From: Pseudovirgaria hyperparasitica | Lineage: Eukaryota | Assembly (NCBI GenBank): GCA_010093815.1 | Contig: ML996583.1 | Length of the DNA stretch: 64,000 bases | Direction: 5' to 3' (one strand) | In this document: positions 36,977 through 44,705 of the stretch, piece by piece | Layout: every line of letters starts with the position of its first letter | Position numbering within the stretch: position 1 is the stretch's first letter | Program-made: the position numbers and the translations under genes | Notes under the pieces: model-generated | The model's database searches: none | The model's input: the letters and a program-made list of their open reading frames with translations, nothing else | What the model was told of the DNA's origin: nothing

Positions 36977-38170
36977 GGTGGTTGTTGGGCGTGTTGAGGG
37001 GTGTGTGAACTTGAATGATAGTGAGCGAATTGTGTAGATGCTTGGAAGTGTAATGTCGAGGTAGTAATACTGTATGTAATTGTAGGTAATTCGACCAGAC
37101 GCCGACTGAAGCGTGCATCCTCATCTTTGGAGCCGAAACACGCTAACCAGTAATTAACCACACGGGCACTTGCGGGCAACTGGAGTAAAGCCGCATGTGC
37201 CAAGACTGCGGCCCACTAAGGTACAGTAATTAACTACGCCAGCGGCTCCCACCATGCATCCAGTGTCCTTCAGGTGACAACTTAATCGATTTCATCATCG
37301 GAATCTCAGATAGCGTGGCATAAGGCAGAATTAGGGGCGGCCGACAAAGACCTACATATAACCATATCTAGGCAGAGTGTATGCGGCCTTGTGGACTGAT
37401 TACGTCGCCGCTGGTCTATCTGGTCAGCCATTCAGTCCTCAGTTAACGACCTCGCGAACACCTGGCGTCCTCCACCTCTTTGTACATCCATGATAGACTT
37501 GACGGGTGACGGAGGCGTGTGGCACTAATATGGACGAGACGAGAACGGTTTATGTGGAATGAGTGGAATGAATGGATTATGACGATGCTCCACAACTACT
37601 GCTGCCACCAGGCCGACACTCAGCTGCCTACCTCTCTGCCACTGCCTAATCATATACTAGTATACCTTACATGTCATATCCATCACCCCCGCCGCCATAA
37701 TGAATGGACGCCCACCTGCATTACCCGGGAATCCATTCTTAATTACATACAGCACTGAAGAACTACCTATATATCCTACACTATTAGCTACATACATGCC
37801 ACACACACACACACATCCGTCTCTCCCATTCTCCATTCTTGATTCTCCATTCTCGTCCTACTACTAATTACTATTACTCCCTCCGCCTCGAAAGCCAACC
37901 CCAAACCCCCCCAAACCCAGTCGGGCGGCGCTCCCGTAGTCCCTCCCTGCCCATCATCTCTTTCTTGTCGCACCCCGCCCGCGCGTCATTTCGCCTCAGC
38001 TTGGGTCCCCGCCAACTTTAACACACTGCTGCACCCTCTCCCATAACCATCCAGATCTTCCAGAAAAAAGTCCCACCCGTCCAGTTTTCCTCCATCACAC
38101 CGCCGTTACCAAGCTTTGCGCCCCCTATACCTGGTTTTTGGGCCCTCCTTGCAGGGAAGTCTTTGCAGCT

Positions 38171-39377
38171 ATGGGTAAATCGTAAGTCTTCTTCCCTGTT
38201 CTGTCCACTCACTTGGCTTCATCACAACAAACCTGGTCGACCCTTGTGCCTCCCTCCTCCAACATGTTCGACTGATTCTTCACCATCCTTCCTTCCTCGT
38301 CTTCGAAACAGTCTTGAGCAACGTTGCTGTATCTTCTTCTCCACCGACCGCCACTTTTCCAGCGCATCCTCATGCCGGACCAGGACGACTGCTCCTCGTC
38401 TCCAAGAATGGCTCCCGCACGAAGACACAGCATACCGCGATATGAAGACACCGCTGGGCCTCAGCGCATGTCCGTCAAGACAAGCCATGACGTCCCTCTC
38501 TTGTCGAACAAAACCTCTCCCCTCAACCTTGCGCGACCCCACCATACCCACATACCCAATCATGACGAACGTGGCTACGACCAGTACAAGGCGCAACGCG
38601 ACTTTGTCCTGGAAAGGGCAATCAAGGAGAGAGCACACGACCTTTCACGACACTGGCCGATTGATCACATTGTCCTGGCCAAGAAGCTGATTATCCATTA
38701 TAGCCAGAGCAAGTTGTCGCAGCAGGAGCTTGCCGATCTGCAAAAGGCCACACATTTCGACAAGAAGGAGTTGCAGCAGTGGTATAAAGGTCTGTTGGTC
38801 CAAAGTCTCGTCAACAACCCTGGACTGAGGTAGCTGACACACCCGTCAAAGGCTTTCTGAAGGACTGCCCTTCTGGCATGCTCACGAAAGAGGAGTTTCA
38901 GAAGATCTACAAACAATTCTTCCCGTTCGGTGATCCGTCAAGTTTTGCAGATTACGTCTTCAACGTCTTCGATGCGGACAAATCAGGATCGATCGATTTC
39001 AAGGAGTTCATTTGCGCTCTCAGCGTGACAAGCAGAGGAAAGATGGAAGACAAATTGGACTGGGCGTTCCAGCTGTACGATATTGATGGCGACGGCAAGA
39101 TCAGCTACGATGAGATGCTAGCGATTGTCGAGGCAATCTACAAAATGGTAGGTCTATGTGCCGAGCCTGCGACATAGGGCGCTGATGAATCCGATAGGTC
39201 GGATCCATGGTCAAGCTCCCCGAAGACGAAGATACCCCTGAGAAGCGCGTAAAGAAGATCTTCAAGATGATGGACAAGGACGAGAATGGCAGTTTAGATA
39301 TGGCTGAGTTCAAGGAGGGCTCCAAGCGAGACGAGACCATCGTGTCAGCCCTTTCCCTCTACGACGGTCTCGTCTAA
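38171..39377 (+). CDS. NCS1: Neuronal calcium sensor-1 / frequenin (myristoylated EF-hand protein)
   Basis: Exons 38171-38181, 38704-38789, 38852-39147 and 39198-39377, giving MGKSQSKLSQ...[12 protein letters not shown]...[14 protein letters not shown]...[13 protein letters not shown]...LSLYDGLV*. Confidence 0.97.
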
Positions 39378-40814
39378 TAATCAGTCAATTGAGCGTTTCC
39401 ACTATACTTCATTAATCCATGACTGGGTTTCTCCTCGCTCTATTCGCTCTCCGGTACAAGCACCATCTTTAGCTCAGCTCATTGCACTGGAAGACAGTAC
39501 CGCAGTTATATCTGCTCCATTACACGTATCATGGCATGTCGGAGGTCGTTTGGGGGTTTGGTTCACTGTGAAAAGAGCGCCTTGTACGTACGTATCTTTC
39601 CTTCGTTGGTTACCGGGGCTCTTTGCTACTCTCTGTCAAACGTTAGGAATGCCTCTAGTCAGAACACCTGTCATAAGAGGCTATGAAAACACTATAAAGT
39701 TGATTCGAGCCTGTTTGCATTGTTAGCTTGTTGCGTTGCGTACTGGTTCATTTCCTTGCAGTGTTACCGGCGTACTTGCTTGGGACATTGCTGTGGCATT
39801 TATGCCGCCATTTGGGGAGCAACATCTGTCGTATTCTCAGGGGTCTAGGATCCTAGGTGAGTAGCAAAGAGCAAACAAGTGTCTGGACAAGTGTGAGCTC
39901 GCTAGAGTGAGCATACATACCGACTCTCTTCAGTCATACAACATCGCGAAATTCTTCTTCTGGCTGGACGATGAGCTCTCGTCCAATGCAATCTTGGTTG
40001 GTGATTTCAAGAGTGGTCAGGATCAATTCCTTCACACAAGGGACCGCAACTTCTTTAGGCTTGACGACTCAAAGACAATAAGTTATCAAAGCCTGCGTCG
40101 GGTACTCGGTAATACTGATACTCCCTCGAGGATTTATTCTGCTCCGATCAGTGCACACTAATATCCGATGATGATGCTCTCCATTAACAGACTGACGATA
40201 TATGCGATGGGGGTTTCACTGCAAGTGTATCACTGCAAGTGTAACGCGCTTAATTACACGAAGCTCGTGTCTCCTCTGATCCTATTCATGGTCCGACACT
40301 CCAGGTCTTCACGAAGTTGCACGCGGAAGCCTGTTCGGTCGCTGGACCACCTTCGAACCGAGCTTTTATCCTCGGATGATTAGGCAATAACCATAACACG
40401 CTTGGGTTGCCTGACGATTCCACATACTGCCGGGTTGATGCTATATGCATCTCCGTGATAATACTAGCGGTGAAGATGGCGGTCGACTGTACAGGGACTT
40501 CTCAATGGCATATTATTGTTCGTGGCATAGGACATCTATTCAATCATTTACTCTCTTTGGTCTTCTACTTATTCTTCCTACATATATATACTTCTGGCTT
40601 CCAGGTACAGTCTCCTCCCTTACCATCATGTTCCTCACAAGCCTTGCAAGTATAGTCAAGCTTACTATCAATCATGAATCTAGAATCAGACAACTGGAAC
40701 GCAATCGCTTTGCCAGCCAAACTCTGTCTCACGACTACTCAATCAACGTGCAAACAGAGCACTATGGCAAGCTCCGCTGGGTCGTGCTTGTGTAAGCTCT
40801 ACTGACAATCGCAG

Positions 40815-43463
40815 GTGTTGACCCCTGGTCCAAGTCCACAATCTGTGTACTCCGAACCAAGTAGGGACGGGTGCGGTGGATCGTCTGAGAGCATGATGGA
40901 TCTCCACTCCCTCGCATCGCACGAAGACATCGATTGGCATCATTTTGAGCAGCATGTGAGCGGCCTTGACGACAACTGTTTCTCAAATCTGCCTCAAAGC
41001 TACACTCAAAGCTCCATGGATGTAGCACACCATTTCTATGGCAACTCAGACCTTAATGACTTTTATGGTACACTGACACCGCCTTACGATTCGCCGCAAT
41101 CGCGAGACCAGTCTATAGCCACAGAGGACACAAGCGAGGGGTTCGGTACTCTCACCCAATACCATCCATATTGTACGGACCGTTCCGAAAGCGGGGCCTT
41201 GTATACGTCTTGTCCATGGCCAACTAACACGACAGACGCGTGGGCGCTTGATACCTCTGATGTTGAACACCTCCACCCGCATAGGGCTGACAGTTGTCAG
41301 CCTCCCGATCTTGGCGACCCCACTTTGAAGGCTAGCTGTGCGCCCGTGCTCAAAGTCGAGATGTTTGGCCCTGGTTATACTCAACAACCTCAACGGTCAT
41401 CACACTCGGTTTCTACGCCACCCGAGCAGTACTATTCAGCAACCACTCCTGGTCTACAGACGTCGCTCGATGTCTATGATCCGTATCCACAGCGTTCGGC
41501 GCGCTCGCAAGAAGAGCTACATTTTAGGGCCATGGCAGATGTTCGTTCAGACTCCATAAAGTATTCAAGTGTACATCATGCTAACACAGACCAGAGCGAT
41601 GATGAACGTGCCTCGCAACAGATCATGTCAGAACACCGACAGAGCGTGCGATCATGTATTCCCCCCACCGATCCCCTCGATGCGACATTCTCTTCTTCTC
41701 CCCTGGAGAGCACTTCGTCCCATGGTCACCTCTCAAGACCAGCAGTAACCTCCCCGAACCAGACGCAGAGACCTATCGCACAACATATAAAGAAGGGTAC
41801 AGGAAAAGTCGGCTTGAAGGTACTCAAGGGCCGCTATGGGAACATGCTCTGCTCAAGTCCAAGCAATGACTTGTTCGACGACATGAGCTCCGGCTCGGCA
41901 TTGCCTTTGAAACTGTTTCCATCATTGTCCGTGCACACTCCACTACGACGCAGAAAGCATGTCGCGGTGGCGTCGCCGATTTCTGAAGAACGTGCGATTG
42001 AAGAGACTATAGTTGAGAAGTTTGCTCGTGCGCCTGTCAATGTGCCTATTGCAGATTCATCCATCGTCAACGCCACCACCGATGACGGATCGTTCGGGCC
42101 AATCACTAGCGACGAAGACGATGGGCAGTTTTTAGTAGAGGAGGTTCTCGATAGGCGATCAAAGTTGATGGCTGATGGCTGTGAACACTTCGAATACTTG
42201 ATCAAGTTTGTCGGGTATAGCGCCAAATACAATGAATGGATTCAGGCCGATGATCTATGCGCTGACCTGCGTATTAAGTTCAATATTGAACATGCTGGGC
42301 TAGACTTTGAAGGACAAAATACGTTGGAAAAGGTCTCGGTCGATCCTGAGGAAGACCTTTTGGCTGCCATCGAGCGATGCGGCGACCCTGGCATCCGCAT
42401 CGGCAGTGTTGCCTTGGGCGAGCCTGACTGGGATGAGATGGATCTGGAGAGCACTCAACGGCTCGCGGAATCTGCTGCTGACGGAGACATGCAAATGGAG
42501 GATGAATCTGCCGGTGAAGGTACGAACAAGATCTCGAGGGGCAAGCCTCAAAAGAGTCGCAAAGCCTGCAAGTCAGACAAGCAAGTCAAGCCCTCCAAGC
42601 CCGCAACCAATCGTGGATCTTTCTCGGCAATGGAACGGGCTGTCATACAGCGACGTGCCAACCAGATCTGCAGAGAAAGAGGGATCACAGCATATGAATT
42701 CAAGGAGGCGATTCAGGTTAAACGTTACAAGGCAAAAAGTGACGTGTCTGAAATATGGCAGTCTCTGATAAGTGCGCTTCCACTGCGCAGTAGAGTTTCC
42801 GTTCAGAAATACTGTAGGAGACAGTTCAATAATGCCCAACGCGGAGCCAACTGGACTGCCGAGCAAGATGCTATCTTGCTTGAGTATGTGACGGAGTACA
42901 ATAACAGCTGTGGCTCGTCCAAGAACATTCCATATGCCATCATAGCCGAAAGATTGCAGCGCCGGGCCGAAGATTGTCGCGACCGCTATCGCGACTATCT
43001 CGAATACCCCGATCGGCGCACGGATCCATGGACGGCTGAAGAGGAGGCAAGATTGCTAGACGTTGTCGAGAATGTCATCCAGTTCGACATTGACTACATC
43101 AAGGAGAGCGGGACGTGGGACGCGTCACGGTATCCGCGAGAGGCCCTTGAACGTCGTATAAATTGGGACGTAGTTGCAAAGACGATGAAGACCCGGAATC
43201 GCCTTCAGTGTCATCCTCACTGGTACACTCTGAAGAACGGCAACACCCCAAGACAGCGAAGAGAGAAAGCCAAGGCTAGAAAGCCCGCCGCTGAGAGGGC
43301 CGAGGCCGAGTCTGCTGCGGAAACAGACGTCGCTTCACTCAACAAGCACAATCGCCTCTCGCAGGCCACCACATTGCCGCCGACAGACCAGAGTAGCCCG
43401 GACGCCATCTCAGCAATAGGCCAACCCCGACACGTCCGAAGGAAGAGCAGCCTGGAGCTTTAA
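40815..43463 (+). CDS. Chromodomain plus Reb1/TTF1/DMTF1-type Myb-repeat protein (start uncertain)
   Basis: 882-codon ORF preceded by an ACTGAC...GCAG acceptor; first internal ATG at 40893. Chromodomain FLVEEVLDRR...EYLIKFVGYSAKYNEW (about 42125-42275). Myb repeats GSFSAMERAVI...WQSL...LPLRSRVSVQKYCRR, WTAEQDAIL...RRAEDCRDRYRD and WTAEEEARLL...INWDVVAKTMKTRNRLQC (about 42610-43230). Confidence 0.85.
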   Translation: MLTPGPSPQSVYSEPSRDGCGGSSESMMDLHSLASHEDIDWHHFEQHVSGLDDNCFSNLPQSYTQSSMDVAHHFYGNSDLNDFYGTLTPPYDSPQSRDQSIATEDTSEGFGTLTQYHPYCTDRSESGALYTSCPWPTNTTDAWALDTSDVEHLHPHRADSCQPPDLGDPTLKASCAPVLKVEMFGPGYTQQPQRSSHSVSTPPEQYYSATTPGLQTSLDVYDPYPQRSARSQEELHFRAMADVRSDSIKYSSVHHANTDQSDDERASQQIMSEHRQSVRSCIPPTDPLDATFSSSPLESTSSHGHLSRPAVTSPNQTQRPIAQHIKKGTGKVGLKVLKGRYGNMLCSSPSNDLFDDMSSGSALPLKLFPSLSVHTPLRRRKHVAVASPISEERAIEETIVEKFARAPVNVPIADSSIVNATTDDGSFGPITSDEDDGQFLVEEVLDRRSKLMADGCEHFEYLIKFVGYSAKYNEWIQADDLCADLRIKFNIEHAGLDFEGQNTLEKVSVDPEEDLLAAIERCGDPGIRIGSVALGEPDWDEMDLESTQRLAESAADGDMQMEDESAGEGTNKISRGKPQKSRKACKSDKQVKPSKPATNRGSFSAMERAVIQRRANQICRERGITAYEFKEAIQVKRYKAKSDVSEIWQSLISALPLRSRVSVQKYCRRQFNNAQRGANWTAEQDAILLEYVTEYNNSCGSSKNIPYAIIAERLQRRAEDCRDRYRDYLEYPDRRTDPWTAEEEARLLDVVENVIQFDIDYIKESGTWDASRYPREALERRINWDVVAKTMKTRNRLQCHPHWYTLKNGNTPRQRREKAKARKPAAERAEAESAAETDVASLNKHNRLSQATTLPPTDQSSPDAISAIGQPRHVRRKSSLEL

Positions 43464-44705
43464 GCGGTTCCAGCAGTTTGAACTCCATCAAAAACGGATA
43501 TCCAGGAGGCCAGATGTCGGATTTGCCTGATCTTGACCTTGTGATCTACGGGGGGCCTTGGGGGCTACTTACGACCTTACGATGTTACGACTCAAAGAAT
43601 ACCTCTGTTTACCAATTTTCTTTCCGGGTCCTCTTTTCCGGCGGTTGTCACAAATGGGCTGCGTGTTGTTGATTCTCAGTTGTCGGAAAGTTTTGCGTCT
43701 CTTGGTATAGCATGCATGCATGCATGCATGATTGTCCCGGTGTAACGACGACGCTGCACTGGTCTTCTTTTGGGGATGGATGCATACTCGGAGGCTCTCG
43801 GGCATTGGGGATGTAGTAATATTGGGGTTGGGGGGTGGGCTTTCGGGCTTAGGTGTTGGTGGAGTTTGTTGCCTGTTGGGTCTACTTCTCTTTGGTTAAT
43901 TAGTTGTTTTAAACTAACTGTGGTCCAAACTTCTCATCATTACTGGACAGTGGAGTTTCGGCTTTGGGCGTTGGTGGTGTTGTTTCTTTTTTTCATGTAT
44001 TATACTTTTCGGTTCGATAGGTTGTTTTGTTATAGTTGAAACTTCTCATCATTACTGTGTTTTCACGAAACCCCCCCCCCTCCCTAGCAGTCCAGGAAGG
44101 AACCCCAGAGCGCTATAACGACCTGATGGATCCAGGAATGAACAGAGGAAACAACACGGAAACAATCGGGAGGGCCCAAAGCGATCCAGAGAACACGCCT
44201 GCCGGAGATCCGGATTCACGGGATAGATTTGTTAGTCAAGGGATTCCCTTGACTAATAAATCCATCCATCCATCTACCACCTACACGCGCGCTGCGCCGG
44301 GGGCAGGCAGGGCAAATACCGGTTATATAGGACGTGGACCCACTCAACCTCAGGAGAGTGTTATATTTCTCTATCTTCTCACATGGCACACTGACTGTAT
44401 CGCGTGTTCAATTCTCGATTTCAGTCGCTGGGTTTTGTATATATGGCTTGACTGGTGCGGAAAAGGCCTACGCTGCGTGATTGATGGGACACGCTACGTC
44501 AAGGGGAAAAGTGTAGATTGATTTTCCAAATTTCTCAAAGGCGCGATGGGCAAAGTCGCATTATCATGCCATAAATACAAAGAATAGTAGCGACTCCATC
44601 ATGGAAATCTAGTAGTACATCTCACACACAATCATCACTCTGCCAGACCAGCTCGGCATAATATACTACAACTCCTCCATCATCCCATCATCCCCTCATC
44701 AACCT

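What the first reader, a model, noticed from the sequence alone, without database searches (positions are those of the whole stretch)
40815..43463. Chromodomain fused to a Reb1/TTF1-type Myb DNA-binding module
Seen: one uninterrupted ORF with a long disordered N-terminus, a chromodomain (cage positions F, F in place of the usual W, and Y) and a full Reb1-like set of Myb-associated and Myb repeats. Known: Reb1/Nsi1/TTF1/DMTF1 are sequence-specific terminators, fork barriers or nucleosome-positioning factors and to my knowledge lack chromodomains, while chromodomains read methyl-lysine and are also carried by chromovirus integrases. Inference: a lineage-specific factor coupling DNA-sequence recognition to H3K9/K27 methylation (rDNA silencing or heterochromatin boundary), possibly from a captured chromodomain. 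This is the best candidate for an undescribed system here.
Basis: partly seen in the sequence, partly recalled or inferred. Interest (0 to 1): 0.72.

Follow-up and report, generated by a model that had tools for sequence, protein, structure and literature searches.

The report
Fungal Reb1 with an added chromodomain
In one fungus, the gene for Reb1, a conserved DNA-binding protein that normally stops ribosomal-RNA transcription, has gained a module of the kind that reads chemical marks on histones and has lost its termination module, a combination not seen in the relatives examined and not yet tested in the lab.

Summary
The fusion is real. The 856-codon frame (40893-43463; Pseudovirgaria hyperparasitica by the NCBI name) holds a chromodomain (aa 413-466; Pfam Chromo 25.2 bits against a cut-off of 25.1 when excised; cage F413/F439/Y442) ahead of a Reb1-type MybAD-Myb-Myb module (best solved match S. 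pombe Reb1). Spliced contigs from two runs of one sample carry both domains in one exon. It is the only Reb1-like gene found in its genome. No chromodomain was found in 150 related proteins or 80 related loci. Two corrections: the gene has introns, and the Reb1 set is not full. It has one MybAD rather than two, and it lacks the C-terminal domain found in 134 of 150 relatives, which matches the transcription-termination domain of S. pombe Reb1. Best reading: a Reb1 rewired from Pol I terminator to a DNA-site plus methyl-lysine reader. Binding is untested, the donor is unresolved (an own-genome Ty3 family and animal HP1 are about equally close), and only one species is known.

The parts
40445..40604 (+). 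Upstream exon from the first in-frame ATG of the spliced RNA (945-aa reading). The true start is unknown: in-frame ATGs at 40445, 40505, 40764, 40893, 40896
   Evidence: joints; splice and ATG list
40605..40683 (+). Intron, 79 nt, GT..AG; contains the ATG used by the NCBI model P0002
   Evidence: P0002 N-terminus against the sequence
40684..40766 (+). Exon ending in an in-frame ATG (40764-40766)
40767..40814 (+). Intron, 48 nt, GC..AG, with a CTGAC branch-point-like site
40815..41540 (+). Exon; low-complexity N-terminal region with no Pfam match
41541..41594 (+). In-frame intron, 54 nt, GT..AG, without a stop; hence the apparently uninterrupted ORF
   Evidence: also absent from P0002
41595..43463 (+). 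Last coding exon, holding both the chromodomain and the Myb module; contigs continue to about 44054
42129..42290 (+). Chromodomain, aa 413-466 counted from ATG 40893; cage F413 (42129), F439 (42207), Y442 (42216); W449 kept; acidic lead-in; net charge -8 over aa 405-470
42615..42830 (+). Single Myb-associated domain (equivalent to MybAD2), aa 575-646
42849..43001 (+). Myb repeat R1, aa 653-703
43026..43232 (+). Myb repeat R2 with a long insertion like that of filamentous ascomycete relatives, aa 712-780
43224..43460 (+). 79-aa basic tail with no Trp (and no aromatic residue after aa 782), where relatives carry the termination-domain homologue

Best explanation
This is the fungus's only detectable Reb1/TTF1-family gene, remodelled by one gain and one loss. 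SHOWN: one spliced exon encodes a classical-type chromodomain, a charged linker of about 110 aa, and MybAD2-MybR1-MybR2; the C-terminal domain homologous to the S. pombe Reb1 transcription-termination domain is missing. INFERRED: the Myb module still binds a specific DNA site (28 of 35 strongly conserved columns kept; folds like 5eyb). The acidic chromodomain with three aromatic cage residues binds a methyl-lysine tail, most likely H3K9me2/3 and possibly H3K27me3, probably weakly because the central Trp is Phe. The protein would then act as a two-input tether that stays longest where its DNA site lies beside methylated nucleosomes (rDNA array edges, edges of repeat-derived heterochromatin), positioning nucleosomes or marking a boundary rather than arresting Pol I through the usual termination domain. 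The chromodomain probably came from outside the gene, a Ty3/chromovirus integrase being the nearest donor seen in this genome.
For: Architecture and single exon. Only Reb1-like match in G000 with four queries (own module, PF21559, P0006, P0020) and among 22 PF13921 matches re-scored with the Myb module. Chromodomain in 0 of 150 related proteins (the one weak partial hit, P0126 at E 0.01, lies after its Myb repeats in the C-terminal domain) and 0 of 80 related loci. C-terminal domain in 134 of 150 proteins (110 of 126 not used to build the profile) and 54 of 80 loci; the relatives' profile aligns there to 5eyb 279-351 (i-E 0.0027), which a passage of PMC8970589 calls the transcription termination domain. 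The query scores E 2.3 with that profile, and the whole window in six frames no better than E 4.6. Cage and core residues are kept although no chromodomain examined is over about 45% identical, and the segment has no stop and no RIP signature (TpA/ApT 0.62) in a genome where 123 of 129 Chromo matches contain stops: this points to constraint. Net charge -8 fits the acidic, histone-binding HP1 class (PMC3013012 passages). MAGGY's chromodomain binds H3K9me2/3 (PMC3350952 passages). [quoted passage not shown]
Against: No binding or localisation data; one species, so no dN/dS. The chromodomain is below the Pfam cut-off in the whole protein and departs from the consensus: W to F in the cage, K/R to V after it, EWI for TWE, and Q rather than E/V at the top clasp position. 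AlphaFold gave low-confidence helices for this segment in both jobs, without alignment depth there: no structural confirmation. A profile from 29 relic chromodomains barely detected it (4.8 bits, best shuffle 4.7). GEN1 shows a chromodomain can be kept for a non-histone role. The donor is unresolved, and no integrase remnant flanks the domain (z 1.7-2.1 upstream, 0.2 or less downstream). The C-terminal domain is not universal: 16 of 150 proteins and 26 of 80 loci miss the threshold, some with tails of only 42-67 aa, so its loss need not be tied to the gain. The Myb module is divergent (7 of 35 conserved columns changed; median 2; 16 of 147 relatives as many or more). The genome searches score only first-look candidates, so a very divergent second copy is not excluded.
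Confidence: 0.45

Rival explanations
1. Passenger domain: a chromodomain fragment, probably from a retrotransposon, landed in frame in the fast-evolving disordered N-terminus and is tolerated; the protein works as an ordinary short-tailed Reb1-like transcription or nucleosome-positioning factor.
For: Single species; marginal score; W to F and other departures; a stop-free fragment of the same Ty3 chromodomain family sits in non-RIP DNA elsewhere in this genome (L030), so such fragments do get scattered; short-tailed Reb1 proteins without a chromodomain exist (P0036, P0043, P0046).
Against: About 33% identity to the nearest relic family, with cage, strand core and the distal Trp kept; neutral drift over that distance should not spare these positions, and TGG to TTT needs two changes yet stays aromatic (inference). 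GC3 of the segment (0.48) is within the gene's range.
Confidence: 0.25
2. Non-histone use: the chromodomain is folded and selected but binds a methylated non-histone protein or an unmodified partner, or packs against the Myb module as a structural or regulatory part, as in GEN1/Yen1.
For: GEN1's chromodomain bound none of the histone peptides tested, yet the chromodomain is needed in yeast Yen1 (PMC5039027 passages); Pc-class chromodomains can bind non-histone methylated sequences (PMC3013012); the C-terminal half resembles CBX4 and the ARID4A chromo-barrel about equally; the protein has RKS/RKA-like motifs of its own at aa 555 and 849.
Against: Three aromatic cage residues and an acidic lead-in as in HP1; net charge -8 argues against direct nucleic-acid binding; a long low-confidence linker separates it from the Myb module.
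Confidence: 0.2
3. Derived paralogue or transferred gene: a canonical Reb1 with its termination domain exists but was missed, and this gene is an extra copy, possibly from a basidiomycete (the species is recalled as a parasite of rust fungi; this comes from no call).
For: Long branch; falls beside three basidiomycete proteins in both trees, weakly (63/78); none of 10 window neighbours found in 80 related loci; the genome search has a loose first look.
Against: Four Reb1 queries find only this locus; two termination-domain queries find nothing significant; best hits are Dothideomycetes (Elsinoe, Patellaria, Sphaceloma); the R2 insertion is 37 aa against 29-47 in the ascomycete-side rows measured and 25 in Roridomyces; grouping with Patellaria is not rejected (p-AU 0.19); the related loci share little gene order among themselves; a published table gives 97.7% BUSCO completeness for this species' assembly.
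Confidence: 0.1

Closest known systems
S. pombe Reb1 (PDB 5eyb); family of S. cerevisiae Reb1/Nsi1 and mammalian TTF1/DMTF1
   Same: MybAD + two Myb repeats, best sequence and fold match; long low-complexity N-terminus; apparently single copy
   Different: Adds a chromodomain; has one MybAD, not two (one also in the filamentous-fungal profile); lacks the C-terminal termination domain; binding site unknown
Reb1-like Myb proteins of filamentous ascomycetes (Elsinoe, Sphaceloma, Patellaria, Teloschistes and unnamed metagenome proteins)
   Same: Single MybAD, R1, R2 with long insertion; at most 37% identity over the module
   Different: 0 of 150 carry a chromodomain; 134 of 150 carry the C-terminal domain
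HP1/Cbx classical chromodomains
   Same: Acidic lead-in, three aromatic cage positions, chromo-box, distal Trp, acidic charge
   Different: W to F; Tyr at the position after the cage where Pc-class CBX4 has Tyr; no polar-clasp Glu; no chromoshadow hit; the fungus's own HP1-like gene is much less similar (score 39 against 73 for the Ty3 family)
Group I chromovirus integrase chromodomains (MAGGY type); own-genome Ty3 family L039/L042
   Same: Nearest own-genome chromodomain, 18 of 55 identical, sharing LDRR, YLxK, YNxW and DL..LR..F; L039/L042 lie behind integrase zinc-binding and SH3 domains
   Different: No integrase or SH3 remnant beside the query's domain; no DNA-level match; support not starred
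GEN1/Yen1, a nucleic-acid enzyme with an appended chromodomain
   Same: Precedent for a chromodomain added to a DNA-binding protein (PMC5039027 passages)
   Different: [quoted passage not shown]

Membership tests
Reb1/Nsi1/TTF1 | Myb-associated domain followed by two Myb repeats | tested here: met
Reb1/Nsi1/TTF1 | Two MybADs (four helix-turn-helix saddle, as described for S. pombe Reb1 in PMC8970589) | tested here: not met
   MybAD1 of 5eyb scores 0.6 bits; the profile of related fungal proteins also has one MybAD, so this is shared with filamentous fungi
Reb1/Nsi1/TTF1 | C-terminal transcription termination domain | tested here: not met
   79-aa tail without Trp; E 2.3 with the relatives' profile, which finds 134 of 150 and aligns to 5eyb 279-351. 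AlphaFold draws a long helix at 786-814 that VIA aligns up to 5eyb residue 444, so a first-helix remnant is possible
Reb1/Nsi1/TTF1 | Binds a GGGTAA-core site downstream of the rRNA gene | tested here: inconclusive
   No GGGTAA in the first 4.6 kb after the assembled LSU copy, but that copy is at an array edge beside RIP-like DNA and the motif may have diverged
Reb1/Nsi1/TTF1 | Pol I termination or polar fork arrest | not testable with these tools
   needs an assay
Classical chromodomain (HP1/Pc/group I) | Three aromatic cage residues at Y24, W45, Y48 (PMC3350952 passage) | tested here: met
   F413, F439, Y442; the middle one is Phe, not Trp
Classical chromodomain (HP1/Pc/group I) | Pfam PF00385 at or above the curated cut-off | tested here: inconclusive
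   25.2 against 25.1 excised; 19.5 in the whole protein; 24.1 in the genome scan
Classical chromodomain (HP1/Pc/group I) | Three-stranded sheet plus C-terminal helix | tested here: inconclusive
   both AlphaFold models are low-confidence there (pLDDT about 50) with no alignment depth
Classical chromodomain (HP1/Pc/group I) | Methyl-lysine binding | not testable with these tools
   needs peptide binding
HP1 proteins | C-terminal chromoshadow domain | tested here: not met
   no Pfam match at E<=1; a separate HP1-like gene exists at L025
Chromovirus (Ty3/gypsy) integrase | Chromodomain at the C-terminus of an integrase with zinc-binding, core and SH3 parts | tested here: not met
   such parts are found at L026, L039, L042
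Domesticated chromovirus chromodomain | Groups with element chromodomains against host ones | tested here: inconclusive
   82/89, long branch, 16 rows from one genome; HP1-alpha is as close

The most novel reading that the evidence does not exclude
A retrotransposon's heterochromatin-targeting chromodomain was domesticated into the fungus's only Reb1 while the Pol I termination domain was lost, turning a conserved terminator into a factor that needs both a DNA site and a repressive histone mark; this species would then end rDNA transcription, or protect forks at rDNA, by another route.
Probability: 0.25. Interest if true: 0.75.

Novelty: new variant of a known kind. Interest (0 to 1): 0.52.

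Why it matters
Sequence-specific DNA binding and methyl-lysine reading are usually on separate proteins (general knowledge). A natural one-chain fusion in a conserved, apparently single-copy housekeeping factor would be a compact model of how heterochromatin is tied to fixed DNA sites, and a case of a host factor gaining a reader domain, possibly from a transposon. The loss of the termination domain also asks how this fungus ends Pol I transcription. A side result is useful whatever the function: the conserved C-terminal domain of fungal Reb1-like proteins, for which the Pfam scans gave no dedicated family, matches the S. pombe termination domain. The weight is limited by having one species and no functional data.

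Tried and rejected
Annotation artefact or read-through into a transposon relic: rejected; spliced contigs bridge both domains in one exon with no differences. The runs are not on record as RNA (no RNA holder listed); RNA is inferred from six joints with GT..AG or GC..AG ends, and both runs are one sample of one study. Chromodomain spliced out: rejected. Architecture common in relatives: rejected within what was examined (best 149 of 949 hits plus P0003; 80 of 94 loci); the other 800 hits were not seen. P0126's Chromo hit (E 0.01, 30 aa) rejected as chance in its C-terminal domain. Termination domain on a downstream exon or separate gene: not found with these queries. Word-based homologue searches were nearly blind: 2, 1 and 0 hits. 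Atlas: no usable hit for aa 400-790. Viral contigs: nothing for either chromodomain query. AlphaFold on the chromodomain: uninformative; no fold search was run on the single-domain model. Complex of the chromodomain with an unmethylated H3 tail: no verdict, score 0.02. Relic-only profile as an independent test: too weak. Synteny: none of 10 neighbours in 80 loci, 36 of them 15 kb or longer. Myb trees: unresolved. rDNA motif scan: inconclusive. Literature: no paper describing this fusion appeared in the listings (2 papers, unrelated by title and abstract start; 0 papers; 0 papers); the library lacks most subscription journals. The fungal TE co-option screen PMC10799480 (passages and supplement rows seen) includes this species and lists six Chromo fusion candidates, none with a Myb domain; it kept only fusions seen in at least five genomes, so a singleton could not appear. 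The primary papers on the Reb1-Ter structure and on MAGGY were not read (the MAGGY paper is not held; the Reb1-Ter paper was not requested); their findings are taken from passages in PMC8970589, PMC8701712, PMC5368702 and PMC3350952. bioRxiv supplements of 10.1101/2021.11.30.470311 (passages only) were not seen and list reader-domain architectures. Earlier scan findings: none by words or by sequence.
Full report
OBSERVATION. The frame is real: 885 codons stop to stop (40806-43463), 856 from the first ATG at 40893. A 100%-identical NCBI model over aa 400-800 is named EJ05DRAFT_504737 of Pseudovirgaria hyperparasitica, with only Myb Pfam families precomputed. Residue numbers below count from ATG 40893. 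Pfam finds Chromo at aa 414-455 (E 9.3e-4, 19.5 bits; 25.2 bits against a 25.1 cut-off when excised), Reb1_MybAD at 577-646 (below cut-off) and two Myb repeats. Against solved structures the Myb part matches S. pombe Reb1 5eyb best (E 4e-15) and the chromodomain matches HP1-alpha best (E 4.9e-5). The Atlas ranks Chromo clusters first for aa 404-472 (0.88, a lead). The cage positions are F413, F439 and Y442.

GENE STRUCTURE. Two runs of one sample, not on record as RNA, hold the stretch. Their contigs skip six segments with GT..AG or GC..AG ends, three in the upstream gene and three in this one, so they are read as RNA. The introns here are 40605-40683, 40767-40814 (GC..AG) and 41541-41594 (54 nt, in frame). 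One piece with no differences covers 41595 to about 44054, so the chromodomain and the Myb module share an exon. The spliced frame opens at ATG 40445 (945 aa), with further in-frame ATGs down to 40893 (838 aa); the start is not known. The NCBI model starts inside the first intron and removes a segment that the contigs read through.

IS IT THE GENOME'S REB1? Four queries return this locus as the only significant match: its own Myb module, PF21559, a Patellaria protein and a full-length relative. Of 22 PF13921 matches, none but this locus scored better than E 0.003 with the module. These searches score only first-look candidates. Best database hits are Dothideomycete Reb1-like proteins. The module is divergent (at most 37% identity; 28 of 35 strongly conserved columns kept) but folds confidently and superposes best on 5eyb. 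Trees leave it unplaced between ascomycete and basidiomycete proteins (63/78); grouping with Patellaria is not rejected (p-AU 0.19). None of 10 neighbouring frames was found in 80 related loci, which share little gene order among themselves.

IS THE ARCHITECTURE COMMON? Not in what was examined. All 150 related proteins (best 149 of 949 hits, plus P0003; three are multi-Myb proteins rather than Reb1) were scanned with Pfam at E<=0.1. One had a 30-aa Chromo hit at E 0.01, located after its Myb repeats in the C-terminal domain. Three proteins had rows not shown, but a direct search with the query's chromodomain found no relative below E 1. A chromodomain profile found nothing below E 0.73 in 80 metagenome loci in six frames, while it detected five of seven control loci at E<=3e-4.

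Relatives carry a conserved domain after MybR2. A profile of it finds 134 of 150 proteins (110 of 126 held out) and 54 of 80 loci, but not the query (E 2.3) or any frame of the window. The relatives' profile aligns there to residues 279-351 of the 5eyb chain (i-E 0.0027). A passage in PMC8970589 describes S. pombe Reb1 as MybAD1, MybAD2, MybR1, MybR2 and a C-terminal transcription termination domain not needed for DNA binding; a passage in PMC8701712 says Reb1-A12.2 contacts are required for Pol I arrest and termination. That the contact is made by this domain is recalled, not seen in a call. The query ends 79 aa after its last Myb Trp, with no Trp in the tail; two termination-domain queries found nothing significant elsewhere in the genome. 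The loss is not unique: several relatives have tails of 42-67 aa. MybAD1 is not matched either, but the filamentous-fungal profile also has one MybAD.

WHERE THE CHROMODOMAIN CAME FROM. The genome has 129 Chromo matches, 123 with stops inside; those inspected include Ty3 integrase relics (L026, L039, L042) and host genes recognised by eye as HP1-like, CHD1-like and Mi-2-like. Of 33 own-genome chromodomains compared (29 relic or relic-like, 4 host; the other matches were not fetched), the L039/L030/L042 family is nearest (scores 73, 62, 57 against 39 for the HP1-like gene) and groups with the query at 82/89, unstarred, on a long branch (18 of 55 identical). That family has at least 9 DNA matches in the genome. 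But HP1-alpha shows about 21 identities over the same span (counted from the alignment), the C-terminal half is as like CBX4 and ARID4A, and there is no flanking integrase remnant or DNA-level match. RIP damage lowers the relics' scores, which favours the element, but the donor is unresolved.

HOW IT MOST LIKELY WORKS. Shown: the parts and their order. Inferred: the Myb module binds a specific site; the acidic (net -8) chromodomain with an aromatic cage binds a methylated histone tail, by analogy with HP1 (PMC3013012 passages) and MAGGY (PMC3350952 passages); the linker lets both act at once, so occupancy would be highest where a site adjoins methylated nucleosomes; without the termination domain the protein is more likely a chromatin organiser than a classical Pol I terminator. 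S. pombe Reb1 already has a reported link to heterochromatic silencing (review passage). I put this at 0.45, against a tolerated passenger domain (0.25), a non-histone role as in GEN1 (0.2) and an extra or transferred copy (0.1). The W-to-F change, the missing polar clasp and the Pc-like Tyr suggest weaker or broader binding than HP1; H3K9 versus H3K27 cannot be called.

COMPARISON AND NOVELTY. It descends from the Reb1/TTF1 family and keeps its DNA-binding core, but fails two features described for S. pombe Reb1 (second MybAD, termination domain). It is not an HP1 and not a retrotransposon gene. Paper searches and a fungal TE co-option screen that includes this species did not show the fusion; an InterPro architecture query could not be run. 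Papers were seen as search listings or passages only; none was read whole. Verdict: real, expressed, apparently undescribed variant of a known protein, known from one species and untested; interest 0.52.

Noticed in passing
window 37824-44054: In both runs a single contig joins the upstream EF-hand gene (frequenin/NCS-1-like, label by eye; ends 39377) to this gene across about 1.07 kb with no long ORF. Read-through, overlapping UTRs or an assembly join; a contig across two genes shows no single transcript.
   Followed up: no
window 40605-40814 and about 41174-41239: The NCBI model P0002 starts inside a spliced intron, misses the GC..AG intron and removes a 22-codon segment that the contigs keep.
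   Followed up: partly
P0003-P0152, after the last Myb repeat: A conserved domain of about 75 aa in ascomycete and basidiomycete Reb1-like proteins has no dedicated Pfam family in these scans and aligns to the S. pombe Reb1 termination domain.
   Followed up: yes
P0036, P0043, P0046, P0127, P0142: Other Reb1-like proteins with tails of 42-67 aa after the Myb module and no chromodomain; one is named from a Xylariaceae genome, the others are unnamed or 'hypothetical'. Independent losses of the termination domain, or short gene models.
   Followed up: partly
L030 (G000:C3:1168672-1168794): A stop-free fragment of the L039-family chromodomain in non-RIP DNA, directly after an unrelated ORF and before a copia-type reverse-transcriptase fragment.
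   Followed up: partly
L147:287-972 (G000:C40, just after the LSU rRNA gene): A 340-bp tandem duplication at 93% identity, followed by AT-rich RIP-like DNA; the assembled rDNA copy itself has RIP-like dinucleotide indices, as at an array edge.
   Followed up: no
L058 (G000:C14:452719): A host chromodomain at the start of a long ORF region, apparently intron-split, not identified.
   Followed up: no
window 23845-57141: Neighbours look like ordinary housekeeping genes (protoporphyrinogen oxidase, WD40, acyltransferase, kelch, MED4, zf-DNL, cullin-3, glycoside hydrolase, allantoicase); labels are by eye, not from a family search.
   Followed up: no
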